DNA of 64,000 nt from Myxococcales bacterium (lineage in GTDB: Bacteria; Myxococcota_A; Polyangia; Fen-1088). Position numbers and translations under genes: made by a program. The stretch lies in NCBI GenBank assembly GCA_043754455.1, contig JAYUUT010000110.1, positions 10,588 through 74,587 of the forward strand, written 5' to 3'. This document shows, piece after piece, positions 7,726 to 47,797 of this stretch; the first letter of the stretch is position 1; each line of letters starts with the position of its first letter. Under the pieces are notes generated by a model. The model was not told the origin of the DNA and ran no database searches. It was given only the letters and a program-made list of their open reading frames with translations.

Positions 7726-10293
7726 ATGCCTACCTCTAAAGTTCTGTCCATGCTGGCCCTTGGGGCCTTTGTTTCCACCTCCTGCCAAGGGCCGCCCGAC
7801 GCGTCCCCTCAGGCGCACCTCAATCTGCTTGCCCCGACAGGCGGCGGTTCATTCGCTACCTCACGGGTCGCCAGCAACTTTGACCGGCCCACACAAATGG
7901 CGGTGGCTCCTGACGGACGCGTGTTCGTCCTGGAACAAGGGGGAACGATCCGCGTGGTCAAAGACGGCTTGGCGTTGCCGACACCATTCGTCACCTTGTC
8001 GAACGTGTTTTCCACGGGAGACTACGGTCTGTTGGGCATCGCTTTTGATCCGAACTTTGGGATTGATCCGAACTTTGCGACCTATAATTACCTGTATGTG
8101 TTTTACGCCGTTGCGGGAACGCCAGGGCATACGCGCATCAGCCGGCTGACGGCGAATGGCGACGTTGTCCAAAGTGGCAGCGAATACCTGATCTTCCAAC
8201 TAGATGACCGTACCCAAGACGCCACGCACATGGGTGGGTCGTTGAACATTGGCGCCGACGGCAGGTTGTACATCTTCACCGGATCGCCCAACGATCACTG
8301 GGAATACTCCCAGGCCCTGACCAGTACGTTCGGCAAGGTGTTGCGCATAAATACCGATCGCAGCATTCCTGACGACAACCCCTACTACACGACGGCCACA
8401 GGAAAATACCGGGCCATCTGGGCCAGGGGGTTGCGCAACCCTTACACAGCCGCTGTTCAACCCGGCACGAACACGATGTACATCAACGACAACGGCCAAG
8501 ACAGCTGGGAAGAAATCAATGCGCTGGCAAGGAACGCCAACTACGGTTGGCCTGACCGCGAAGGCAACACAGGAACGGTTATGCTTGCCGATTATGTTGG
8601 TCCCATCAGCGTCTACGCGCACGGTGACGGCGATGCCTTGGGCAAATCCGCTGTCGGCGCAGCTTTTTACAACCCGACCACGACGCAGTTCCCAGCGTCC
8701 TTTGTGGGCAAATATTTCTTCGCAGATTACGTAAACGGTTGGATCAAATACCTTGACCCCCTCAACCTTGCCGCTGCGCCCGTCCTTTTTTCAGCGACCA
8801 ATTTGACCCTGCACCCTTTGGACATCGACGTCGCTCCCGATGGCAGCCTGTACTACCTTTCGCGCGGCGATTCATCGGCACCATCCACCGGCCTTTACCG
8901 CGTGACCTACAACAGTGGGGACGCGGCCCCTGTTTTCACCCAACAACCGGTCAACGTTACGAAGGCCGTTGGGCAAACGGCCACATTCTGCGCCAGTGCC
9001 ACTGGCACACCGACCCCCACGTACCAATGGACGACGCGCGGCGGTTCAAACATCGTGGCAAACATCGTGGGGGCGACCGCGGCCTGTTACACAACGCCTG
9101 CGTTGGTCATCGGCGACAACAACGCCCAGTTCCAGGTTGTGGCCACGAACACCGTGGCCAGCGTATCTAGTGCGACGGCGACCCTCACCGTGGTGGCCAA
9201 CGGCATTCCGGTCCCCAAAATCGTTTCCCCTGCGGTGGGCGCCAAATACAACGCGGGCCAGACGATTTCTTTCTCTGGAACCGGCGCCGATCCGGAAGAC
9301 GGCACGTTGCCGCCGTCAGCGTTCACCTGGTGGATTGAATTTCGCCACAACACCCATACGCACAGTGCTTTGCCACAAACACCCGGCATCACCAGTGGTT
9401 CAATCGTCCCGTCACAAACGGATGAAAAATCAACCGACGTGTCGTATCTGGTACATCTCCGGGTGACAGATCTTCAGGGGTTTTCGGCAGAAACGATGAC
9501 CGAAGTGCAGCCGAATCTTGTGAACCTGACGCTCGCGACCAATCCCGCAGGAATACCCTTAAACTTAGACGGCAGGTCAGTCGCCACGCCTTATGCATTT
9601 TCCAGCGTGGTTGGCACCAAATGGGATTTCGCTGCGCCCTTAACCGGCACCGTGGGTTCCACGGCATACAATTTTTCGAATTGGTCCGACGGCGGCGCGG
9701 CCACACACACCATCGTCGCCCCCAGCGCCACGACCACCTTCACAGCCAACTACAACCCCTACGCGGAAACGTTCAGCAGCGGGACGGCAGCAGGTTGGAC
9801 CTTGAGCACGAACGCCAGCATCGTCAACCAGGCCTTGGTGTACAACTCGTGGTCCACAACCGAAATGTCCTACTACAGCGGGAGATCGTTCACCCCGCCG
9901 TATACCTACAAGGTCGACATCATCAACAGTGGCACCGGCAGCGACGCGAATACGTCGCGGGTCGCCTTTCACCTGCTTGATGCGAACAACTTCCTATACT
10001 TGCAGATGAGCAACGCAACGTCGCCGGGGACAAAGACGGTGACCTTGAACAAGAGGGTCAACGGCGTCGAGACAAGAATTGCGACCTCTGCTGGAAACTA
10101 TCCAACCGCGGGAAAGACCGTTACGATCACCGTGTCAGCCTTGGCGGGGAACAAGTTCAGTGTCACCGCGACAACCAGCGGCGTTTCAAAGACTCTGTTC
10201 AGCAACGTCAGCATCAGCACCTTCACCTCGGGCAAGATTGGCGTGGGGATGCGGTCGTCGAACACGCAGTTCGACAACATCGACGTGAGATAG
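7726..10293 (+). CDS. Lipoprotein with an N-terminal glucose/sorbosone-dehydrogenase-like (GSDH) beta-propeller, followed by Ig-like and beta-sandwich domains
   Basis: ATG at 7726 in frame with the long ORF. Lipobox 'VSTSCQG'. 'GLLGIAFDPNF', 'RNPY' and 'NDNGQDSWEE' blocks are typical of soluble PQQ-type GSDH beta-propellers. The middle region resembles Ig I-set ('QFQVVATN', 'ATLTV'). The C-terminal ~250 aa is beta-rich and unassigned. Confidence 0.7.
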   Translation: MPTSKVLSMLALGAFVSTSCQGPPDASPQAHLNLLAPTGGGSFATSRVASNFDRPTQMAVAPDGRVFVLEQGGTIRVVKDGLALPTPFVTLSNVFSTGDYGLLGIAFDPNFGIDPNFATYNYLYVFYAVAGTPGHTRISRLTANGDVVQSGSEYLIFQLDDRTQDATHMGGSLNIGADGRLYIFTGSPNDHWEYSQALTSTFGKVLRINTDRSIPDDNPYYTTATGKYRAIWARGLRNPYTAAVQPGTNTMYINDNGQDSWEEINALARNANYGWPDREGNTGTVMLADYVGPISVYAHGDGDALGKSAVGAAFYNPTTTQFPASFVGKYFFADYVNGWIKYLDPLNLAAAPVLFSATNLTLHPLDIDVAPDGSLYYLSRGDSSAPSTGLYRVTYNSGDAAPVFTQQPVNVTKAVGQTATFCASATGTPTPTYQWTTRGGSNIVANIVGATAACYTTPALVIGDNNAQFQVVATNTVASVSSATATLTVVANGIPVPKIVSPAVGAKYNAGQTISFSGTGADPEDGTLPPSAFTWWIEFRHNTHTHSALPQTPGITSGSIVPSQTDEKSTDVSYLVHLRVTDLQGFSAETMTEVQPNLVNLTLATNPAGIPLNLDGRSVATPYAFSSVVGTKWDFAAPLTGTVGSTAYNFSNWSDGGAATHTIVAPSATTTFTANYNPYAETFSSGTAAGWTLSTNASIVNQALVYNSWSTTEMSYYSGRSFTPPYTYKVDIINSGTGSDANTSRVAFHLLDANNFLYLQMSNATSPGTKTVTLNKRVNGVETRIATSAGNYPTAGKTVTITVSALAGNKFSVTATTSGVSKTLFSNVSISTFTSGKIGVGMRSSNTQFDNIDVR

Positions 10294-10481: not shown

Positions 10482-10569
10482 GGAGAGATGGCCGAGTGGC
10501 CGAAGGCGCCTGATTCGAAATCAGGTTTGGGTTTACGCCCAACGTGGGTTCGACTCCCACTCTCTCCTC
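10482..10569 (+). tRNA. tRNA-Ser (anticodon CGA)
   Basis: Begins 'GGAGAGATGGCCGAGTGG...', the class II tRNA-Ser D-arm signature. Anticodon loop 'cctgaTTCGAAAtcagg' gives anticodon CGA. Long variable arm, T-arm 'GGTTCGACTCCC', and a 3' acceptor complementary to the 5' end. Confidence 0.8.
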
Positions 10570-10592
10570 AAAAATAAATACTGGAGAGATGG

Positions 10593-10667
10593 CCGAGTGG
10601 TCGAAGGCGCATGATTGGAAATCATGTTTACCGCAAGGTAACGAGGGTTCGAATCCCTCTCTCTCCT
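10593..10667 (+). tRNA. tRNA-Ser (anticodon GGA)
   Basis: Same 5' sequence 'GGAGAGATGGCCGAGTGGTCGAAGGCGC'. Anticodon loop 'catgaTTGGAAAtcatg' gives anticodon GGA. T-arm 'GGGTTCGAATCCCTC' and acceptor 'tctctcc'. It lies 24 nt after the first tRNA-Ser. Confidence 0.8.
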
Positions 10668-10670
10668 CAA

Positions 10671-12095
10671 ATGCGATCCACCGAGCGCCTGCGAGCTGAT
10701 ATTGCGGCCCTGCGGCTTCGGTTCGAATCGGACCTTGCCGCGTTTGTACAATTGCCGTCGGTCAGCATGGATCCGGCCCGGCGACCCGCCATTGAGGCCT
10801 GTGCCGCCTTGGCGTGTAAGACCCTGCGCGACGCGGGGGCGACGGTCGACCTGATTGACACCGGCGGCCTGCCCCTGGTGTTGGGGCGGTTCATTCGCGA
10901 TCCGTCGTATCCAACGGTCACCGTCTACAACCATATGGACGTGCAGCCAGCGGATCCGTCCGAATGGCAGACGCCGCCCTTCACGTTCACCCGAGATCCC
11001 CAGGATCCCGATGTGTGGCGCGGCCGCGGCACCACCGACGACAAGGGCCCCGCCCTGACCGCCTTTCATGCCGCCCGCCTGGCGATGTCGGATGACGTAA
11101 AGCTGAACATCCATTTTCTGTGGGAAATGGAAGAAGAAATCGGCAGCCCAAATTTTGAAAAGGGTCTCCTCAAGGCGAAAAAGGCCGGATTTACGACCGA
11201 TTCTGTCGTCGTTTCCGACACCATCTGGGTGTCCGCCGATCGCCCCGCCATCCCCTATGGCCTGCGCGGTCTGATGGGATTCACCGTGCGCCTGCAAACC
11301 GGTGCAAAAGATGTCCATTCAGGCACTACAGGCGGCGCCGCTCGCAATCCTGTGGGCGAACTGTGCGGGTTGATCGCCCGGATGTACGATCCTGTGACGG
11401 GGAAGGTGAAAATCCCCGGATTTTACGATGACGTCCGCAAACTGTCGGCGGCCGAACGGGCGGGGTTGGGGCGGGCTGGATTTTCGCGTCGCCACTTTCA
11501 AAAGGCGCATGAACTGCACAGCGTCCGGTTCCAGGACGACAAACGGTTGCGCGAGGCCATCATGGCGCAGCCCACCTTCGAAGTTCACGGGCTTGTCGGG
11601 GGTTATACGGGCCCCGGCATCAAGACCATCGTGCCCCATGTCGCTGAGGCCAAACTATCAACCCGCCTGGTTCCTGATCAAAACCCCGCCCAGATTTTCG
11701 CGCTTCTCAAAAAATTCGTGAAGCGGCACTGCCCAGACGCGGTGGTCACCGCCGAGGGGGCTCTCGATCCCTATATTGCCGACATCGGCGGCCCGTATCA
11801 CGAGGCAGCGGTTGGCGCGATGAAAGACACTTTTGGCCGTATCCCCGGCCTGACGCGTGAAGGCGGCTCCATCGGGGCGGTTCTGACCATACGGCGGTTG
11901 CTCAAGGCGCCGGTGCTATTTTTGGGCCTGTCGCTGCCTGAACACGGCTACCACGCCATCAATGAAAATTACGACTGGCGTCAAACTCGGGGCGGCATGG
12001 AGATGTTCTACCGGTACTTTTTCCGCCTGGCGGGAATACCCTCGGGGGGACCGCGGGTTGCCCCACGAACCCCTCGCGCTAGGATCAAGTCATGA
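10671..12095 (+). CDS. M20-family metallopeptidase (dipeptidase / Cys-Gly-dipeptidase-like)
   Basis: Metal-binding blocks of M20/M25/M40: 'YNHMDVQPAD', 'GRGTTDDKGP', 'EMEEEIGSP' (catalytic Glu-Glu), and the 'HSG' / 'HAINE' region. Start moved to the first ATG after the tRNA, because the track ORF overlaps the tRNA. Confidence 0.8.
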   Translation: MRSTERLRADIAALRLRFESDLAAFVQLPSVSMDPARRPAIEACAALACKTLRDAGATVDLIDTGGLPLVLGRFIRDPSYPTVTVYNHMDVQPADPSEWQTPPFTFTRDPQDPDVWRGRGTTDDKGPALTAFHAARLAMSDDVKLNIHFLWEMEEEIGSPNFEKGLLKAKKAGFTTDSVVVSDTIWVSADRPAIPYGLRGLMGFTVRLQTGAKDVHSGTTGGAARNPVGELCGLIARMYDPVTGKVKIPGFYDDVRKLSAAERAGLGRAGFSRRHFQKAHELHSVRFQDDKRLREAIMAQPTFEVHGLVGGYTGPGIKTIVPHVAEAKLSTRLVPDQNPAQIFALLKKFVKRHCPDAVVTAEGALDPYIADIGGPYHEAAVGAMKDTFGRIPGLTREGGSIGAVLTIRRLLKAPVLFLGLSLPEHGYHAINENYDWRQTRGGMEMFYRYFFRLAGIPSGGPRVAPRTPRARIKS

Positions 12096-12601: not shown

Positions 12602-14125
12602 TCAGCCGGCGCGCAGGCCGTCGACGACCTTCAACCGGCTGGCGCGCGCGGCAGGGTACAGCGTCGCGACACAACAAATAAGCTGGGTAGCCGCTGCGAC
12701 CACGATCAACTCCGTCACCGAAATCTGCACCGGCAGTTTTTCGATCAGATAGACCTTGGGGTCCAGCGGGTACCCATAGATCCGGGCCATCGCGCACACG
12801 CCCAGGCCAAAAACGGTGCCAAGTCCCGTGCCCACGAACCCCATGAAGCTGCCGGACACAAGGAATAGCCGGCTTAAGGCGCCGCGCCGGGCGCCCATTC
12901 CGGCCAGGATCGCGATCTCACGGATCTTGGACAGCACGATCATGGTCAGCGACGCCATGATGTTGAAAGCCGCCACCACGATGATCAGCACCAAGAACAA
13001 AGCGATGATGGTTTTCTGCATCGTCAGCGCCATGAACAAATTGTGATTCAGTTCACGCCAGTTAATGATCTGCAGATCGCTGCCCAAACGGGCCTCGACT
13101 TCGGGTTCAGCCTCAAGCGCCCGGTGGGGCGTGTCGAACCGAAGCTCTAGTCCAAAAATGACCCCCCGTTTTCCGCTGGCGCGGCGGGCATCTGCCAGAC
13201 TCAAGAAGGCCAGGCGGGTGTCGTATTCGTTGAACCCCATGCGGGAAAGCGCCGCGACTTTGAACCGATACCACGGTGGCGGGGCGGTCAGATCGCCCCC
13301 TGTGGGAATGGGGATGGTCACGTTCACACAATCGCCGACCTTCACGCGCAGGCGTCGGGCCAGCTCTTCGCCCAGAACAATATGGCCAACCTTGGGATCG
13401 TCCGAATCGCCATCTGTTGCGGGTGCAAGCCCCGGCATGGACGGGCGCGCAGGACAAAAGCCGGTTTTTCCAAGGGCGTCGATCGACCCTGCGACCAGCC
13501 ACCGCGACAGTTCAGCGCCGCCCCGTTCCAAATCGACACCTTTTAGGTTGGCGCCAACTTTTCCGATCATCACCTCGCCGGCAGACAGGCTGAACTTCGC
13601 CATCGTGCGAAGGCCCGGTAGCCCCAACAGCTTCTTCATATGAGCGTCGGCGTCGCGGTCAGCCTGTTCCGGCTCCGGCTCTCCGTAGTCCCTAATCAAC
13701 ATATGCGAGTTAACGGATAGGACCTTGTCCTGAAACTCGCGTTCAAACCCGCTGGTCACGGCCAGCACGACCACCAGTGACGCCACCCCCAACACCACGC
13801 CCATGGTCGATACGGTGGTGAAAACCGAAAATACCCGCAAGAGCAGAAACAACATCACGCCCAATCCACCTAAGAGCGCAAAAATCACAGCGATCGTTTC
13901 AAGGGTCCGCAGACCCGCCTTGCCCGCCAAAAACATGGCAGCCAGACTGGATCCCGTAACCAGCGCCGCTACCACGATGCCGACGCCAGCGACCTTTGAT
14001 TGACGTCGCCGGGTCAGGTACCGAATCCCCACAAATCTTTCAAACCGCGCACGGACTATCAACGCCACGCCTGCGGCAAGGACCACGGCGCCCGCAATCA
14101 AAAGGGCTATCAGGAAGGGCTGCAC
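12602..14125 (-). CDS. FtsX/LolE/MacB-family ABC transporter permease
   Basis: N-terminal TM, a large periplasmic domain, a C-terminal 3-TM FtsX domain ending '...ATLYPAARASRLKVVDGLRAG', and MacB_PCD-like 'DLERGG' segments. Confidence 0.75.
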   Translation of the reverse strand: MQPFLIALLIAGAVVLAAGVALIVRARFERFVGIRYLTRRRQSKVAGVGIVVAALVTGSSLAAMFLAGKAGLRTLETIAVIFALLGGLGVMLFLLLRVFSVFTTVSTMGVVLGVASLVVVLAVTSGFEREFQDKVLSVNSHMLIRDYGEPEPEQADRDADAHMKKLLGLPGLRTMAKFSLSAGEVMIGKVGANLKGVDLERGGAELSRWLVAGSIDALGKTGFCPARPSMPGLAPATDGDSDDPKVGHIVLGEELARRLRVKVGDCVNVTIPIPTGGDLTAPPPWYRFKVAALSRMGFNEYDTRLAFLSLADARRASGKRGVIFGLELRFDTPHRALEAEPEVEARLGSDLQIINWRELNHNLFMALTMQKTIIALFLVLIIVVAAFNIMASLTMIVLSKIREIAILAGMGARRGALSRLFLVSGSFMGFVGTGLGTVFGLGVCAMARIYGYPLDPKVYLIEKLPVQISVTELIVVAAATQLICCVATLYPAARASRLKVVDGLRAG

Positions 14126-43272: not shown

Positions 43273-44358
43273 TTAAAAATCGAATCCGCCACTGAGGGAC
43301 AGGCTGTCTTGGCGACCGCTTCCATCCCGAGGCCCGTTGGGGCGCTTCCCATCGCGGCTGCTGCCCGCAGGAACTGTTTCCAGTGATGCCGCCAGGAATA
43401 CGGTGGCAAACTTCAGTTTTGTGCCCGCGAAATAGCGCTGCCGGGTGATGACGTCCTGTTCGGGGAAGCTAAAATTGGCGCGCTGATCGTTGTCAGTGCC
43501 ACGCTGGGCGTTTGCGCACGATCCACCAACGTTCGTGTTGGGGCCCGCCTGGCGAACCGATTCGGCATCACACGCGGGCGTCAGATCGAACACGCCGCTT
43601 GATGCATTGATAAACAAAAAACTGGTCCCGGCGAATAGTTCCATCCGAAACGTACCCCGCACGCCGAAACCTTTGGACGCGATCAAATCCAACGACGTGA
43701 CGGTCATGCGAATTTGGTCAGTGCCTGTTAGATAGGCAACCGCACCACGAACGGCAAACGATGGCAGCGGCCAACCGTGAAACCCTTCGTGCACTGCCAA
43801 TTTTGCGTAGCCCTGCCACGATACCAACTGCGATTCCAAAACGTTGACCGCCCCGGCGCCAAATTCGAAGGCAGGCAGGCCCAGCCAAATGCCCTTGCGC
43901 ACAAAAGCCCCCAGCGTTGTCAGCGAGCCTGATGGCCGCTTCGCATTCGGATTTTCGATGGCAACGCCCTGGACACCATTCCAGTACGAGGCCCGATTGG
44001 AAATGCCGGTGACCCCCAGTTCACCCGAAATCTGAAATCCGGCGAACCCCAACGTGTCAGCAGGCATCACCAATCGTGGGGCCGCCACGACGCCCAATTC
44101 GGACATGAGGCTGCGAAACCGTTCGGTAGCCGCACCATCGGGTGTCACCTCGGTAATCAGCCCGGACCCCGGCTGGCGGCGCACCCAGGAGCATTCAGGA
44201 ACCTGCGCGTTAAGCTGACCGGACGGTGCCGCGCGCTGGTCGCAAAGATTCAGCAGGAACGGATCATGCCGCCCGGCACACGCCACGCGAGATCCTGACG
44301 CCGAGACGGCTAGCGCCAGCGTGCCAATCAAGATCCGGTTAAGGCCGCGTCCCACCAT
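43273..44358 (-). CDS. Hypothetical outer-membrane beta-barrel protein
   Basis: Signal peptide 'LIGTLALAVSASG'. Beta-strand-rich sequence with a C-terminal aromatic 'SLSGGFDF' typical of OMP insertion signals. Confidence 0.5.
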   Translation of the reverse strand: MVGRGLNRILIGTLALAVSASGSRVACAGRHDPFLLNLCDQRAAPSGQLNAQVPECSWVRRQPGSGLITEVTPDGAATERFRSLMSELGVVAAPRLVMPADTLGFAGFQISGELGVTGISNRASYWNGVQGVAIENPNAKRPSGSLTTLGAFVRKGIWLGLPAFEFGAGAVNVLESQLVSWQGYAKLAVHEGFHGWPLPSFAVRGAVAYLTGTDQIRMTVTSLDLIASKGFGVRGTFRMELFAGTSFLFINASSGVFDLTPACDAESVRQAGPNTNVGGSCANAQRGTDNDQRANFSFPEQDVITRQRYFAGTKLKFATVFLAASLETVPAGSSRDGKRPNGPRDGSGRQDSLSLSGGFDF

Positions 44359-44476
44359 TGCCCCTGGACGCTACGGGCGCGGCCTTACACCTGTCAAGCT
44401 GTGCAAGCCAAGGTCGATCCAGATTCAGCAATATGCTCACTCCCTTGGCCCTTACACACCTGGGCCTATAATGACC

Positions 44477-44506
44477 TACATGAACACGACCTACATGAAC
44501 ACAAGG
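44477..44506. repeat. Perfect 15-bp tandem duplication at the 3' flank of the methyltransferase islet
   Basis: 'gacctacatgaacac' x2 in the intergenic region, ~100 nt downstream of the MTase stop. Confidence 0.7.
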
Positions 44507-44602
44507 GCGACAGGGATAGGAAACATATCGTTCGGCCTGGGGGCCATTCCGGTGAAACGCTGGCCGAGGTGATGCGCACCAAGGGAAGGTGACCATAAGT
44601 TT

Positions 44603-46519
44603 TCAATGGGCAATGTCTTTGAGGGAAACTTGGGTGCAACTTTCAACGTGCTTTCGGTGACTTGCGTTCAGCGCGAAAGCTTCCATCACCAAGGCATTTA
44701 TTTCCCGGTATGCCGAAACCCCAGATGGGGGGTCACGCAAGATGATGTCCACCAGCCGAGAGAGTTCTTGGTCAGTCGTATTTGAGATTCGGGGGAAGGG
44801 CATTTTTTCAACATCGCCCTTCAACACCTTGATCGCTTGGAATCGCCTCGCAAAAACAAATTGAAAAAGCTGGGAATTTAGGAACGCCAGCACGCTTTTT
44901 ATGGAATAGCCCTCCAGATTCGGGATCAGCACATTCGCGCTGTTTAGGACGAGCGTCTGCTTGTCGTCATACGCGAAGATCAGTTCATCCGAAATGAAGC
45001 GATACACCAACTTTTCCGCAGCCCGGTATTTCCAAGTTGGAGCCACTTGCTGGAAGGCTTCGGGTTGGAACCTAATGTATTTGGCGGGTTTGTCCGCAAC
45101 AAATCGACACAAGTCCTTTCCGAGCCAAAGAGGCTCCGTCTCATCATCAGGACTATCGAGAACAAAGCGCGAATTGTTTCCAGTTACGATACCAAGAGCC
45201 CACTCTGCGTTCCCGCGGAGCGTTAAGTGCTCCGAAGAAAACACAGCATCGATCACTTCTCGCTCCTCATGACTCGAACGAATATCGAAAATGTAATCCT
45301 CGCCTTTAAGGACACTCTCTTGAAGAACACTGACTTCGGAAACGCCATGACGGGCGATGAAAGTTGTGCTCTGCGAATGGCGGGACTTGAAAGCATCAAC
45401 TCTCACGACCTTGGAAAAGACGTTTTGAAATACTCGGCCCAAGTTACTTACTGAATCGAGTGTTGCGTTCTCGAGCAAAACCCGTCGGAGATTGCGGTGA
45501 GTCTTGATGTTCAAGAAGGCTTCGGGCAGTAGGATGGACAGGCCCCCCCCATTTTTAAGCAGTCTCAGACCAGCCAAAACGAAGAAGGAAAACGAATCGG
45601 AGACGTCAGCATGGAAGCGAGTCCTGAGAGACACCAATTCCTGCGTCGACAAATGACCGCCCCACGGAGGGTTTGTGGCGACCACGTCGAACCGACCGCC
45701 TGCGTCTAATAGTCCGTTTTCATGGTGGATGTTCGGCGTAAACTCGTGATGCGGGTAGCTCAGAAGGAGATTTATCCGCGCAATTCGAACCGCAATCTCG
45801 TCAATATCATACCCCCATACCGCCCTAGGTTCTGTGATGATGCGCGATGCTTTAACTAGGAAAATCCCGGTACCGCAGCATGGGTCTATAAACATTGAGT
45901 CTGGCCGTGTGTGCAGTCGAACCATCGATTCGGCAATCGAGGCTGGTGTGTAATACGAACCAAAGCTCGATTTTGTGCCTTCAGCCAAAAGTGATTGATA
46001 GAGCAATCCCAGAAAATCCGGGTGCGTTTCGGAAATAATCAGCTGGGGCAGAGAATGGAGTGCTGCTGGCTCGTCTCTCCACCAGTCCAGTTCGGCTTCG
46101 ATACTGGGCCGGGGATCCTTTCCTGCGAACATCTGGATCACTACCAGCTTTAGAAACGTCTTAAGACTGGCACCAGAAGCACGGAAATAATGAACGCATC
46201 GTTCGATCTCTTGGATGAGTGGCTTGGAAGCGAGATACTCCTGGGGTACGAAGGTTTCGCAACTCGCCCTTTTGTTTGCGCGCGTTCGGAGCCGGCCACT
46301 CCCGCCACTGCTAATTGAGTCTTTTAGACTGTTAAGCTGCTGCGTGTGAAAGACCATATCGCCGCTTTGGGTGGGCTGAACCGTCAGAACTCCACTTTTG
46401 ACCCAGTTTCTCGCCGTAGCCGTTGAGATTCCAAGGCGTTCGCTCGCGGTCTTAAGGTCGAGCAGTTCGTCCTGAGAGTCTAAAAATGGCAGAGATGTTT
46501 GAATGGTCTGCTTCATCAT
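44603..46519 (-). CDS. Gamma-class N6-adenine DNA methyltransferase (Eco57I/TaqI-like) with an N-terminal HTH_17-type domain and a C-terminal target-recognition domain; no cognate endonuclease nearby
   Basis: HTH 'LKTASERLGISTATARNWVKSGVL'. Motif I 'FIDPCCGTGIFL'. Motif IV 'NPPWGG'. 'GSYYTP' and 'GYDID' blocks are typical of the Eco57I-like N6 MTase family. Local base composition is visibly lower GC than the flanking genes. Confidence 0.8.
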   Translation of the reverse strand: MMKQTIQTSLPFLDSQDELLDLKTASERLGISTATARNWVKSGVLTVQPTQSGDMVFHTQQLNSLKDSISSGGSGRLRTRANKRASCETFVPQEYLASKPLIQEIERCVHYFRASGASLKTFLKLVVIQMFAGKDPRPSIEAELDWWRDEPAALHSLPQLIISETHPDFLGLLYQSLLAEGTKSSFGSYYTPASIAESMVRLHTRPDSMFIDPCCGTGIFLVKASRIITEPRAVWGYDIDEIAVRIARINLLLSYPHHEFTPNIHHENGLLDAGGRFDVVATNPPWGGHLSTQELVSLRTRFHADVSDSFSFFVLAGLRLLKNGGGLSILLPEAFLNIKTHRNLRRVLLENATLDSVSNLGRVFQNVFSKVVRVDAFKSRHSQSTTFIARHGVSEVSVLQESVLKGEDYIFDIRSSHEEREVIDAVFSSEHLTLRGNAEWALGIVTGNNSRFVLDSPDDETEPLWLGKDLCRFVADKPAKYIRFQPEAFQQVAPTWKYRAAEKLVYRFISDELIFAYDDKQTLVLNSANVLIPNLEGYSIKSVLAFLNSQLFQFVFARRFQAIKVLKGDVEKMPFPRISNTTDQELSRLVDIILRDPPSGVSAYREINALVMEAFALNASHRKHVESCTQVSLKDIAH

Positions 46520-46564
46520 GCCGCCAAACGCTGAGTTGAGCCCTGTTCAATCCTTGCGTGCGCC

Positions 46565-47797
46565 CTAGGCCGGGAGTTTTTCCTGGATGCGGCCGATGGC
46601 TTCTTCGACGTTTTGGCGAAGGCCGAATGCGGACAGGCGGAAGTAACCTTCACCACAAGATCCGAAGCCGGATCCGGGGGTGCCGACGACGTGGGCTTCG
46701 GTCAGCAATTTATCGAAGAACTGCCACGAGGTTTGCCCAGGCGGGATCTTGAGCCAGCTATAGGGTGCATTCACGCCGCCGTAGACCGTGTAGCCCGCTT
46801 TTCCCAGGCCTTCGCGGATCAGGCGGGCGTTTTCCATGTAGTACGCGACATTGGCCTGCACCGCGGCCTTCCCTTCTGGGGAAAACACGGCTGCTGCCGC
46901 TTTTTGGATAGGGTACGACACACCGTTGAACTTGGTGGTATGGCGACGGTTCCACAGGGCGTGTAGCAGCACCTTGTCGCCGGATTCGGTTTTCGCCGCC
47001 AATTCTTTGGGCACCACCGTATAGGCACAGCGCGTACCTGTGAATCCCGCCGTTTTGGACAGGCTGCGAAATTCGATAGCGACCTCGCGGGCGCCGGGAA
47101 TCTCGTAAATGCTGCGGGGCAGGCCGGGCTCCCGGATGAAGGCCTCGTAGGCGGCATCGAAGAGAATGATGGCGTCGTTTTTCTTGGCCCAATCCACCCA
47201 CCGCCCTAGGGCCGCACGCGACATCACAGCGCCTGTCGGGTTGTTGGGAGAACACAGATAGACCAGATCCACACGTTTGTCCGGAAGCGCGGGTTCGAAG
47301 CCATTTTCGGCGGTGGTGGGTAAATAGACGAGGCCTGCGAACCGTCCCTGGGCATCAACCGATCCGGTGCGGCCCGCCATCACATTGGTGTCGACATAGA
47401 CCGGATAGACGGGGTCGGTGACGGCGACCACACTGTCGGTGGCGAAGATTTCCTGGATATTGGCCGTGTCGCATTTGGACCCGTCCGAAACGAAAATCTC
47501 GTCGGCGGCAACATCCGCTCCGGCGGCGCGGTAGTCGGCCGCAATGGCATTCAGCAGAAAATCGTAGCCCTGTTCGGGGCCATAGCCACGAAAGCTGTCC
47601 GGTCGGGCCATTTCGTCTGCGGCGGTTTTCAAGGCCTCGACGATGGGGGTGGGCAGCGGCAACACCACATCGCCAATGCCCAAACGGATCACCTTCGCGG
47701 TCGGGTTAGCGGCGCAAAACGTCCGCACCCGCTTGCCGATTTCGGGAAACAGATACCCTGCTTGAAGCTTCTGATAATTCGCGTTGATCCTGGCCAT
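46565..47797 (-). CDS. dapL: LL-diaminopimelate aminotransferase
   Basis: Start at the internal ATG giving '[24 protein letters not shown]', the characteristic DapL N-terminus. PLP-lysine region '[10 protein letters not shown]'. Confidence 0.8.

What the first reader, a model, noticed from the sequence alone, without database searches (positions are those of the whole stretch)
44360..46560. Low-GC ~2.2 kb islet carrying an orphan gamma-class N6-adenine DNA methyltransferase with an N-terminal HTH
The 638-aa minus-strand gene has motif I (DPCCGTG) before motif IV (NPPWG), with GSYYTP and GYDID blocks of the Eco57I/TaqI-like family and a TaqI_C-like C-terminal half. It is preceded by a ~150-aa excisionase/MerR-type HTH. 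Base composition across 44.4-46.5 kb is visibly AT-richer than both flanks (OMP gene and dapL). A perfect 15-bp tandem duplication ('gacctacatgaacac' x2) sits at the downstream boundary. No restriction endonuclease, BREX or DISARM partner is present on either side. Together this points to a horizontally acquired solitary MTase, either an epigenetic regulator or the remnant of an RM or defence system.
Basis: partly seen in the sequence, partly recalled or inferred. Interest (0 to 1): 0.55.

Follow-up and report, generated by a model that had tools for sequence, protein, structure and literature searches.

The report
Orphaned restriction-modification methyltransferase gene
This is a foreign DNA adenine methyltransferase gene left behind after its partner restriction enzyme gene was cut away just past its start codon, which is a clean but ordinary example of how bacteria end up with solitary methylases.

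Summary
An intact minus-strand ORF (44603..46519, 637/638 aa) encodes a gamma-class N6-adenine DNA methyltransferase with an N-terminal winged HTH. It lies in the most AT-rich stretch of the window (GC 0.51 vs 0.615, z = -4.6; GC3 z = -5.3). No defence partner occurs anywhere in the 64 kb.

Three details need correcting:
- The foreign segment is 1.94 kb (44593..46536), not 2.2 kb.
- The HTH is about 55 aa, not about 150 aa.
- The 15-bp tandem repeat (44473..44502) lies 90 bp outside the foreign DNA. It resembles several other short duplications in the window, so it does not mark a boundary.

- All six closest relatives (67-86% identical) carry a 243-aa PD-(D/E)xK Type II restriction endonuclease 4-7 bp downstream.
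- The window's gene nests inside that M+R clade.
- The window keeps the MTase stop, the 6-nt spacer and the first four bases (ATGG) of the endonuclease gene. Homology then ends.

The MTase keeps every family-invariant residue. dN/dS is 0.10-0.17 and its rate is not accelerated, so it is probably still active. It is likely read through from dapL.

This is a new member of a known kind and of low interest. An empty-site genome, the recognition sequence and the rest of the genome could not be examined.

The parts
44593..46536 (-). Foreign segment (the 'islet'), 1,944 bp. It holds the MTase gene plus about 17-20 nt upstream and 10 nt downstream. GC is 0.509.
   Evidence: blastn homology to L001 (86-88% identity) spans exactly 46536..44593; homology to L002 (73-75%) spans 46527..44600. 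Base-level alignments are A1 and A2.
44603..46519 (-). Intact ORF for an HTH-fused gamma-class N6-adenine DNA methyltransferase. It is 638 aa from the first ATG; the probable start is the second Met at 46516 (637 aa).
   Evidence: PADLOC MTase_II PDLC03348 scores 1.1e-113. All invariant columns of the 45-member family alignment are kept. dN/dS is 0.10-0.17. The AF2 model has pLDDT 86, and Foldseek best hits are CamA, M.BseCI and M.TaqI.
46307..46465 (-). N-terminal winged helix-turn-helix (HTH_17 / excisionase-MerR type), residues about 19-71. The recognition helix reads 'LGISTATARNWVKSG'.
   Evidence: Pfam HTH_17 matches residues 19-47 at E = 1e-3. 45 of 45 family members match HTH_17. AF2 secondary structure is E18-20, H21-28, H32-40, E55-57, H58-70. 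A33, T34, N37 and W38 are invariant.
46235..46294 (-). Conserved linker block 'RLRTRANK...FVPQEY' between the HTH and the MTase core. Its function is unknown.
   Evidence: Invariant columns L76, R79, A80, N81, K82, F89, P91, E93. pLDDT is low at residues 74-80.
45422..46021 (-). AdoMet-dependent catalytic domain, carrying motif X GSYYTP (45944-45961), motif I DPCCGTG (45866-45886), GYDID (45800-45814) and motif IV NPPWG (45659-45673).
   Evidence: Pfam N6_Mtase matches residues 167-366.
44828..45133 (-). TaqI_C-type target recognition domain.
   Evidence: Pfam TaqI_C 2.4e-19 over residues 463-564. dN/dS is lowest in this part of the protein (0.06-0.14).
44593..44602 (-). Scar of the lost restriction endonuclease gene: the 6-nt M-R spacer (AAACTT) plus 'ATGG', the first four bases of R. 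Homology to all M+R relatives stops here.
   Evidence: Alignment A1 and the six-way junction comparison. Relatives read TGA-spacer-ATGGA(A/G)GC.TTAAAAGC; the window reads TGA-AAACTT-ATGG then TCACCTTCCC. tblastn finds no other R remnant.
44339..44596 (-). 85-aa ORF that opens at the retained R start codon and reads across the spacer into the start of the OMP-like gene. It is most likely a meaningless by-product of the deletion.
   Evidence: It has no similarity to R.
44359..44592 (.). 234-bp spacer with host-like composition (GC 0.568) between the foreign segment and the OMP-like gene. It presumably contains that gene's promoter region.
   Evidence: its GC lies within the range of the other intergenic regions (0.54-0.74), and blastn finds no match to any locus or to the rest of the window.
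44473..44502 (+). Perfect 15-bp x 2 tandem duplication (GACCTACATGAACAC). It lies 90 bp outside the foreign segment and 115-144 nt upstream of the OMP-like gene's start codon. It is not a target-site duplication.
   Evidence: Comparable perfect short tandem duplications occur at 9047 (12 x 2) and 31254 (15 x 2.7).
46565..47797 (-). dapL (LL-diaminopimelate aminotransferase), the intact upstream neighbour on the same strand. Its stop codon lies 26 nt before the foreign segment. It is the likely source of read-through transcription of the MTase.
   Evidence: Pfam Aminotran_1_2 5.5e-36. Full-length matches of 74-79% to DapL of Myxococcota-like MAGs. No terminator-like site after dapL and no promoter-like site on the minus strand.
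43273..44358 (-). OMP-like 361-aa gene with no Pfam match, the downstream neighbour. It is the first gene of a conserved block: OMP, PHB_acc_N, TatA, MltD/LysM, RluD.

Best explanation
The gene is the methyltransferase half of a horizontally acquired two-gene Type II restriction-modification module. In that module an HTH-fused gamma-class m6A MTase is followed 4-7 bp later by a 243-aa PD-(D/E)xK endonuclease.

In this genome the endonuclease gene was removed from its second codon onward. This happened either by deletion after integration or by truncated integration. What remains is a 1.94-kb MTase-only insert, 26 nt downstream of dapL.

What is shown:
- The composition is foreign.
- All close relatives are M->R pairs.
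- The window's copy nests among those pairs.
- The M-R spacer and the R start codon are retained.
- No R remnant or other partner exists in the 64 kb.
- The ORF is intact, keeps all family-invariant residues and is under purifying selection.

What is inferred:
- The enzyme still methylates adenine in a short specific sequence throughout the chromosome.
- It is transcribed by read-through from dapL, because its native upstream region was not retained and no promoter or terminator separates the two genes.
- Its main present-day effect is passive. It gives immunity to re-invasion or post-segregational killing by the very widespread cognate RM family, and it leaves an incidental epigenetic mark.
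- In the intact module the N-terminal HTH probably auto-represses the operon (the 'regulatory MTase' arrangement). Here it has probably lost its operator.
For: Foreign origin:
- GC 0.509 against 0.615 (z = -4.6) and GC3 z = -5.3, the lowest in the window.
- The same module is AT-rich (0.46-0.51) in two other high-GC hosts (0.58-0.60).

RM origin:
- In relatives P0002-P0007 (67-86% identical) a 243-aa gene lies 4-7 bp downstream (a 160-aa fragment where the contig ends).
- Where DNA was held, that gene is 85-93% identical to the L001 copy.
- It matches PADLOC REase_II PDLC03414 at 2e-71 and carries a D...E-V-K motif.
- Its AF2 core matches the NhoI REase, I-Ssp6803I, EcoRV and Hjc.
- The pairing persists at 40% MTase identity: in L100, R is 58% identical.
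- In the NJ tree the window's MTase nests inside the M+R clade.
- Junction alignments show TGA, the spacer and ATGG retained, then no homology.

No partner: tblastn of R against the window gives nothing, and PADLOC/Pfam scans of 20 other ORFs show no defence genes.

Still functional:
- All invariant columns of the 45-member alignment include the window residue.
- dN/dS is 0.17 against L001 and 0.10 against L002, and is similar in the HTH, core and TRD.
- Tajima relative-rate test: 38 against 30 unique changes, chi2 = 0.94.
- The AF2 model is confident (pLDDT 86) and matches CamA, M.BseCI and M.TaqI.

Expression: there is no promoter-like site on the minus strand and no terminator between dapL and the MTase.

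Not an assembly artefact: an independently assembled Logan contig (SRR22198329) shows the same dapL-M-OMP order.

Literature:
- PMC3424554 proposes that orphan MTases arise from horizontally acquired RM systems by selective loss of the REase.
- PMC12707154 describes regulatory MTases with N-terminal HTH fusions.
Against: - No genome with an empty dapL/OMP junction, or with the intact M-R pair at this site, was found. Whether R was lost in situ or never integrated is therefore unresolved.
- Only 64 kb of the genome is visible, so an unlinked R copy elsewhere cannot be excluded.
- Activity, recognition sequence and transcription are all inferred.
- The purifying-selection signal mostly reflects history shared with R-linked relatives and cannot date the loss of R.
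- The R-scar evidence rests on only 10 nt (9 of 10 identical to L001).
Confidence: 0.8

Rival explanations
1. It is a domesticated epigenetic regulator of the Dam/CcrM/CamA type. The solitary MTase has been recruited to control gene expression or replication and is maintained for that role.
For: - The ORF is intact with all invariant residues, and dN/dS is 0.10-0.17.
- It is co-oriented with dapL and probably co-transcribed with it.
- Its closest solved structure is CamA, an orphan MTase.
- Orphan MTases often show regulatory signatures (PMC4752239).
Against: - The exact protein cluster has a single member. It is seen only on the source contig and one Logan contig with the same arrangement.
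- None of the 15 metagenomic relatives that share the OMP block has it, nor do the four closest DapL relatives.
- Its composition is still strongly foreign (GC3 0.56 against 0.70).
- All close homologues belong to RM pairs.
Confidence: 0.08
2. It is still part of a working RM system whose endonuclease is encoded elsewhere in the genome, outside the 64-kb window.
For: Only 64 kb is visible. The MTase is intact and constrained.
Against: - In the seven family members with a recognisable full-length R, that gene lies immediately downstream on the same strand.
- The window retains the scar of exactly that R gene.
- No R-like sequence occurs in the 64 kb.
Confidence: 0.05
3. It is a decaying relic: an MTase that is no longer expressed or active and is on its way to becoming a pseudogene.
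For: - It lost the module's native upstream region; only about 20 nt is retained, whereas L001, L002 and L103 share conservation out to about -65.
- No recognisable promoter is present.
- dN/dS against L001 (0.17) is somewhat higher than between R-linked relatives (0.09).
Against: - The 638-codon ORF is uninterrupted and all invariant family residues are present.
- Amino-acid change is not accelerated relative to L001 (38 against 30, not significant).
- Its position 26 nt after an essential-pathway gene, with no terminator between, favours read-through expression.
Confidence: 0.07

Closest known systems
Orphan (solitary) Type II MTases formed by degradation of horizontally acquired RM systems (model of Seshasayee et al. 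2012, PMC3424554)
   Same: - The composition is foreign.
- Orthologues are bona fide RM MTases.
- The REase is lost while the MTase stays intact.
- The expected consequence is immunity to the same RM type.
   Different: The REase is not a diverged or degraded neighbour. It is removed cleanly from codon 2, leaving only its start codon, so this case is at the 'fully orphaned' end of the spectrum.
The uncharacterised M->R module represented by PADLOC MTase_II PDLC03348 and REase_II PDLC03414 (as in L001, L002, L100, L103-L105)
   Same: The MTase is a clear member: 1.1e-113 against the profile, 67-86% identical to members, with the same HTH, core and TaqI_C architecture.
   Different: The window lacks the R gene. 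It also lacks the short conserved stretch upstream of M that the complete modules share.
M.TaqI, M.BseCI and CamA (gamma-class m6A MTases with a TaqI-like TRD; solved structures)
   Same: Same fold and domain order, and the same catalytic NPPW/Y and AdoMet motifs. Foldseek E-values range from 1e-19 to 1e-28.
   Different: Sequence identity is only 16-19%, so specificity cannot be transferred. None of these is reported here to carry the N-terminal HTH_17 domain. CamA is a lineage-conserved orphan, whereas this gene is strain-specific.
Regulatory MTases with an N-terminal HTH, which auto-repress and so control the M/R balance (described in PMC12707154; from my own knowledge the classic examples are the C5-MTases M.SsoII, M.EcoRII and M.MspI)
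   Same: An N-terminal HTH is translationally fused to a Type II MTase, and the family lacks a separate C protein in the co-directional M->R form.
   Different: - This is an m6A gamma-class enzyme with an HTH_17 (excisionase/MerR-like) winged helix.
- No operator has been identified.
- In the window, the upstream DNA where an operator would lie was not retained.

Membership tests
Gamma-class N6-adenine DNA methyltransferase (Pfam N6_Mtase / Eco57I / TaqI_C; M.TaqI-like) | Motif order X - I - IV with the TRD at the C-terminus | tested here: met
   GSYYTP (res 187-192), then DPCCGTG (212-218), then NPPWG (283-287), then TaqI_C (463-564).
Gamma-class N6-adenine DNA methyltransferase (Pfam N6_Mtase / Eco57I / TaqI_C; M.TaqI-like) | Profile matches above the curated thresholds | tested here: met
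   N6_Mtase 76.2 bits (cut-off 20.4), TaqI_C 70.2 (26.5), Eco57I 57.5 (25.3).
Gamma-class N6-adenine DNA methyltransferase (Pfam N6_Mtase / Eco57I / TaqI_C; M.TaqI-like) | Fold of the catalytic and recognition domains | tested here: met
   AF2 pLDDT 86. Foldseek: CamA 1.5e-28 (TM 0.55-0.64), M.BseCI 2e-25, M.TaqI about 1e-19.
Gamma-class N6-adenine DNA methyltransferase (Pfam N6_Mtase / Eco57I / TaqI_C; M.TaqI-like) | m6A activity on a defined recognition sequence | not testable with these tools
   This needs a methylome or a biochemical assay. No characterised close homologue was found (best NCBIfam hit 71.7 bits against a cut-off of 353.5).
Complete Type II restriction-modification system | A cognate restriction endonuclease gene linked to the MTase | tested here: not met
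   No R gene or remnant beyond its first 4 bases occurs in the window. No REase hits among 20 other ORFs. The feature is met in all six close relatives.
Orphan MTase derived from an RM system | Close orthologues are MTases of intact RM pairs, and the orphan nests among them | tested here: met
   Six of six relatives at 67-86% identity are M->R pairs. The NJ tree nests the window copy within them.
Orphan MTase derived from an RM system | A physical trace of the lost REase gene | tested here: met
   The M stop, 6-nt spacer and ATGG of R are retained (9 of 10 post-stop bases identical to L001), followed by an abrupt loss of homology.
Orphan MTase derived from an RM system | The MTase is intact and constrained | tested here: met
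   All invariant columns are retained. dN/dS is 0.10-0.17 and the relative-rate test is not significant.
Orphan MTase derived from an RM system | No cognate REase anywhere in the genome | not testable with these tools
   Only the 64-kb window is available.
Lineage-conserved regulatory orphan MTase (Dam / CcrM / CamA type) | Conserved at the same locus across related genomes, with host-like composition | tested here: not met
   It is absent from 15 loci sharing the OMP block and from the four nearest DapL loci. GC3 z = -5.3. The protein cluster has a single member. Caveat: the available relatives are distant (48-55% OMP identity, 74-79% DapL identity).
Regulatory (HTH-fused, autoregulating) MTase | An N-terminal sequence-specific HTH domain fused to the MTase | tested here: met
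   HTH_17 matches 45 of 45 family members. The AF2 model shows a winged HTH at residues 18-70. Recognition-helix residues are invariant.
Regulatory (HTH-fused, autoregulating) MTase | An operator for the HTH in the promoter region of the RM genes | tested here: inconclusive
   Relatives L001, L002 and L103 share a conserved stretch about 40-65 nt upstream of M, but it lies inside upstream ORFs and no dyad was identified. The window retains only about 20 nt upstream.
BREX PglX / Type IIG / Type I HsdM | A full-length match to the family model and the accompanying system genes | tested here: not met
   NCBIfam BREX-1 PglX scores 63 bits against a cut-off of 500, and hsdM 24.7 against 242.75. Matches are local to the catalytic motifs. 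No BREX, HsdS or HsdR genes are in the window.
Integrative mobile element or genomic island | Integrase or transposase, tRNA target, flanking direct repeats | tested here: not met
   The only tRNAs are at 10.5 kb. No recombinase is in the flanks. No repeats lie at the two boundaries; only chance-level 10-13-mers were found.

The most novel reading that the evidence does not exclude
The orphaned HTH-MTase has been co-opted. Inserted directly behind dapL and read through from it, it would impose a strain-specific m6A pattern. Its HTH, freed from its native operator, could bind host sites, so the protein would act as a dual transcription factor and epigenetic writer. Separately, its lost partner belongs to a very large family (more than 4,000 clusters) that is highly conserved (about 70% identity across phyla). 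That family has no Pfam or NCBIfam model and is labelled 'hypothetical' everywhere, so characterising it would name a common restriction enzyme of uncultured bacteria, notably Patescibacteria.
Probability: 0.07. Interest if true: 0.5.

Novelty: new member of a known kind. Interest (0 to 1): 0.2.

Why it matters
As a biological finding it is modest. It is a particularly clean, base-resolved snapshot of how a solitary methyltransferase arises from a restriction-modification module. The endonuclease is excised from codon 2 while the methylase stays intact and constrained.

It has some practical value:
- This MAG's annotation should call the gene an orphan Type II m6A MTase rather than a possible defence system.
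- The methylase predicts a strain-specific m6A motif that could help with methylation-based binning.
- The partner endonuclease family is abundant in metagenomes but has no name in Pfam, NCBIfam or the source annotations, so a curated model for it would improve RM annotation.

Tried and rejected
Empty-site test:
- DapL was searched in one genome per species. The nearest hits are only 74-79% identical Myxococcota-like MAGs and share no synteny beyond dapL.
- The OMP-like gene was searched in metagenomes. The 15 relatives (48-55% identity) conserve the block OMP, PHB_acc_N, TatA, MltD. Upstream of it, however, the seven loci checked that reach far enough carry homologues of window genes 12602-14125 and, in three of them, 10611-12095, not dapL. 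No comparable empty site exists in the data reached.

R-gene remnant: tblastn (word size 2, E up to 100) and blastn (word size 7) of the L001 and L002 R genes and their downstream flanks found nothing in the window beyond the 10-nt scar.

The 15-bp tandem repeat as an insertion signature: rejected. It lies 90 bp outside the foreign DNA, is not duplicated at the other boundary, has no further copies, and similar duplications occur elsewhere.

Terminal, direct or inverted repeats at the islet ends: only chance-level 10-13-mers were found.

Mobile-element cargo: no tRNA, integrase or transposase is nearby.

Naming the system or its specificity:
- R has no NCBIfam hit and no sequence hit in the PDB.
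- R is essentially absent from plasmids.
- The MTase is only 16-19% identical to solved MTases.
- Specificity therefore could not be inferred.

Other points:
- The exact 638-aa protein is not on record; the 637-aa form is.
- The BREX, Type I and Type IIG readings were rejected on scores far below the family cut-offs.
Full report
**1. What is in the sequence**

The minus-strand ORF 44603..46519 (638 aa) is real. It is recorded in public data as a 637-aa protein starting at the second Met (P0001, 100% identity). In relative L002 the first position is GTG, so 46516 is the likelier start.

- GSYYTP (motif X, residues 187-192)
- DPCCGTG (motif I, 212-218)
- GYDID (236-240)
- NPPWG (motif IV, 283-287)

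Pfam gives N6_Mtase, Eco57I and TaqI_C above their gathering scores. PADLOC gives a near-full-length match to a Type II MTase profile (PDLC03348, 1.1e-113). Matches to BREX PglX, MADS, hsdM and Alw26I-type models are local and far below the curated cut-offs.

**2. The HTH**

In the window protein alone the HTH_17 match is sub-threshold (E = 1e-3, 19.8 bits against a cut-off of 27). However, all 45 aligned family members match HTH_17 (best 3.5e-10) and some also match MerR models. The recognition-helix residues A33, T34, N37 and W38 are invariant. An AlphaFold model (pLDDT 86, pTM 0.75) shows a beta-alpha-alpha-beta winged helix at residues 18-70.

The HTH is therefore genuine but spans about 55 residues, not about 150. 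The rest of the N-terminal region has two parts: an invariant 'RLxxRANK...F.P.E' linker of unknown function, and a helical segment (residues 98-147) that precedes the catalytic core.

**3. Composition**

The gene's GC is 0.509. Thirty-one non-overlapping windows of the same length average 0.615 +/- 0.023, which gives z = -4.6, and the gene is the minimum of all sliding windows. Its GC3 is 0.560 against 0.696 +/- 0.026 in 35 other ORFs, z = -5.3.

**4. Exact extent and boundaries**

- DNA homology to the closest relatives with available DNA runs only from 46536 to 44593 for L001 (86-88% identity) and from 46527 to 44600 for L002 (73-75%). The foreign segment is 1,944 bp.
- The 5' end lies about 17-20 nt before the start codon and 26 nt after the dapL stop.
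- The remaining 234 bp up to the OMP-like gene has GC 0.568, which is typical of the window's intergenic regions. It matches nothing else.
- No direct or inverted repeats mark the two ends.
- The nearest tRNAs are 34 kb away.
- The perfect 15-bp x 2 duplication is at 44473..44502, 90 bp outside the foreign DNA. TRF reports comparable perfect short duplications at 9047 and 31254. It is incidental.

**5. The missing partner**

Each of the six closest relatives (P0002-P0007, 67-86% identical) has a 243-aa gene 4-7 bp downstream of the MTase on the same strand. In one of them the gene is cut to 160 aa by the contig end. For four of the five relatives with held DNA (L002, L103-L105), tblastn shows this gene to be 85-93% identical to the L001 copy.

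Evidence that this protein is a restriction endonuclease:
- It matches the PADLOC Type II REase profile PDLC03414 at 2e-71 over almost the whole profile.
- It carries a 'DF..PE...IRIEVKAS' PD-(D/E)xK signature.
- Its AlphaFold model (pLDDT 79) has a core that matches the NhoI restriction endonuclease, I-Ssp6803I, EcoRV and Hjc resolvases.

The pairing is old. At only 40% MTase identity (L100), the gene 2 bp downstream is the same REase at 58% identity.

The R family is large (4,489 hits) and strikingly conserved (about 70% identity across phyla, many of them Patescibacteria). It has no Pfam or NCBIfam model and is labelled 'hypothetical' throughout. It is almost absent from plasmids.

Other arrangements also occur in the wider family. 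L099 has a convergent, shortened R-like gene plus a C protein on a mobilisable element. L098 and L102 have no recognisable R.

**6. Polarity and the scar**

A neighbour-joining tree places the window's MTase inside the clade of M+R relatives, next to L001. The M-only state is therefore derived.

At base level, every relative reads TGA, a 4-7-nt spacer, then ATGGA(A/G)GC.TTAAAAGC... The window reads TGA, AAACTT, ATGG, and then unrelated sequence (TCACCTTCCC...). The intergenic spacer and the first four bases of the endonuclease gene survive, with 9 of 10 post-stop bases identical to L001. Nothing else of R is detectable anywhere in the 64 kb.

The retained ATG now opens a spurious 85-aa ORF (44339..44596). 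The window also lacks a short stretch, about 40-65 nt upstream of the MTase start, that L001, L002 and L103 share. The window's copy is thus trimmed at both ends relative to the circulating module.

**7. Is the MTase still functional?**

- It retains every invariant column of the 45-member alignment.
- Nei-Gojobori dN/dS is 0.17 against L001 and 0.10 against L002, compared with 0.09 between the two R-linked relatives. The values are similar for the HTH, the core and the TRD.
- A Tajima relative-rate test with L002 as outgroup shows no acceleration (38 against 30 unique substitutions, chi2 = 0.94).
- No sigma-70-like promoter on the minus strand and no terminator-like hairpin lies between dapL and the MTase. 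Read-through from dapL is the simplest expression route, but this is an inference.

**8. Context**

The neighbours are housekeeping genes:
- on one side: RluD-like, MltD/LysM, TatA, PHB_acc_N and an OMP-like gene;
- on the other side: DapL, a 498-aa protein of unknown function, OsmC and HslUV.

PADLOC finds nothing specific among 20 other ORFs. A Ser/Thr kinase gives generic kinase-domain hits and a LolE-like protein gives a membrane-domain hit.

The host is a Myxococcota-like MAG lineage (nearest DapL 78-79%). An independently assembled Logan contig (SRR22198329) shows the same dapL-M-OMP order, so the arrangement is not a binning artefact.

An empty-site comparison was not possible. The nearest genomes share no synteny at dapL. 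The 15 metagenomic relatives that share the OMP block carry other genes upstream of it.

**9. Interpretation**

The data fit the established route described by Seshasayee et al. (PMC3424554): horizontal acquisition of an RM module, selective loss of the endonuclease (the only loss order that is not lethal), and persistence of an orphan MTase that confers immunity to the same RM type.

The N-terminal HTH fits the 'regulatory MTase' arrangement summarised in PMC12707154. In the window its presumed operator region is not retained.

The alternative readings are less likely. They are a domesticated Dam/CcrM/CamA-type regulator, an RM system with an unlinked R gene, and an inactive relic. Sections 5-8 give the reasons. 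None of them is formally excluded without the whole genome and a methylome.

**10. Verdict**

This is a new member of a known kind and a tidy, base-resolved example, but not surprising to a specialist. Interest is 0.2.

Noticed in passing
window ~14.13-14.15 kb and ~44.36-44.60 kb; loci L083-L097: In the seven metagenomic relatives that share the OMP, PHB_acc_N, TatA, MltD, RluD block and were checked that far, the genes upstream of the OMP gene are homologues of window gene 12602-14125 and, in three of them, also 10611-12095. These lie 30 kb away in the window. The orientations fit a roughly 30-kb inversion in the window's lineage, with one breakpoint at the OMP|MTase junction. The MTase therefore sits at a synteny breakpoint.
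   Followed up: partly
L001:11924-12655, L002:11922-12653, L100:6994-7719 and 4,489 database hits: The partner endonuclease family is very large and unusually conserved, with about 70% identity across distant phyla. R is 90% identical between L001 and L002 where M is only 73%, and 58% against 40% for L001 and L100. It has no Pfam or NCBIfam model and is annotated 'hypothetical protein' everywhere.
   Followed up: partly
window 46235-46294 (residues 76-95 of the MTase): An invariant 'RLxxRANK...F.P.E(Y)' block lies between the HTH and the catalytic domain and is conserved in all 45 family members. The structure model has low confidence there (residues 74-80). Its function is unknown.
   Followed up: no
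L001:9940-9975, L002:9940-9975, L103:~215-250: A conserved stretch about 40-65 nt upstream of the MTase start is shared by three M+R relatives. It lies at the 3' end of different upstream ORFs: an HsdM-like fragment in L001 and a TIR-domain protein in L002. It translates to a similar 'DF(H/R)(D/Y)K(F/L)' peptide. It could be a remnant of an ancestral upstream gene or part of the module's control region. The window lacks it.
   Followed up: partly
L002:9594-13644: In L002 the M-R pair is embedded among other defence-type genes. A 135-aa TIR-domain gene overlaps the MTase start, and a DUF4365 / REase-like 304-aa gene lies downstream. This looks like a defence island.
   Followed up: no
L099:3291-6022: A family variant (47% MTase identity) sits on a mobilisable element carrying a relaxase and ArdC. 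Its MTase faces a convergent pair: an HTH_3 controller (C) protein and a shortened 187-aa protein that matches only the C-terminal part of the same REase profile.
   Followed up: no
window 44339-44596 (-): An 85-aa ORF begins at the retained start codon of the deleted endonuclease gene. It runs through the 15-bp tandem repeat into the start of the OMP-like gene. It is probably a non-functional by-product, though it inherits whatever translational coupling the R gene had.
   Followed up: no
window 10482-10668: Two tandem tRNA-Ser genes (anticodons CGA and GGA) are 81% similar to each other over a 101-bp period. They lie immediately before gene 10611-12095, which is near the other end of the putatively rearranged region.
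   Followed up: no
window 44445-44472 (+): The only sigma-70-like match in the region (TTGGCC-16-TATAAT, 10 of 12) is on the plus strand, directly before the tandem repeat. It points antisense into the 3' end of the MTase gene. The count is no higher than in shuffled sequence (1 found, 1.3 expected).
   Followed up: no
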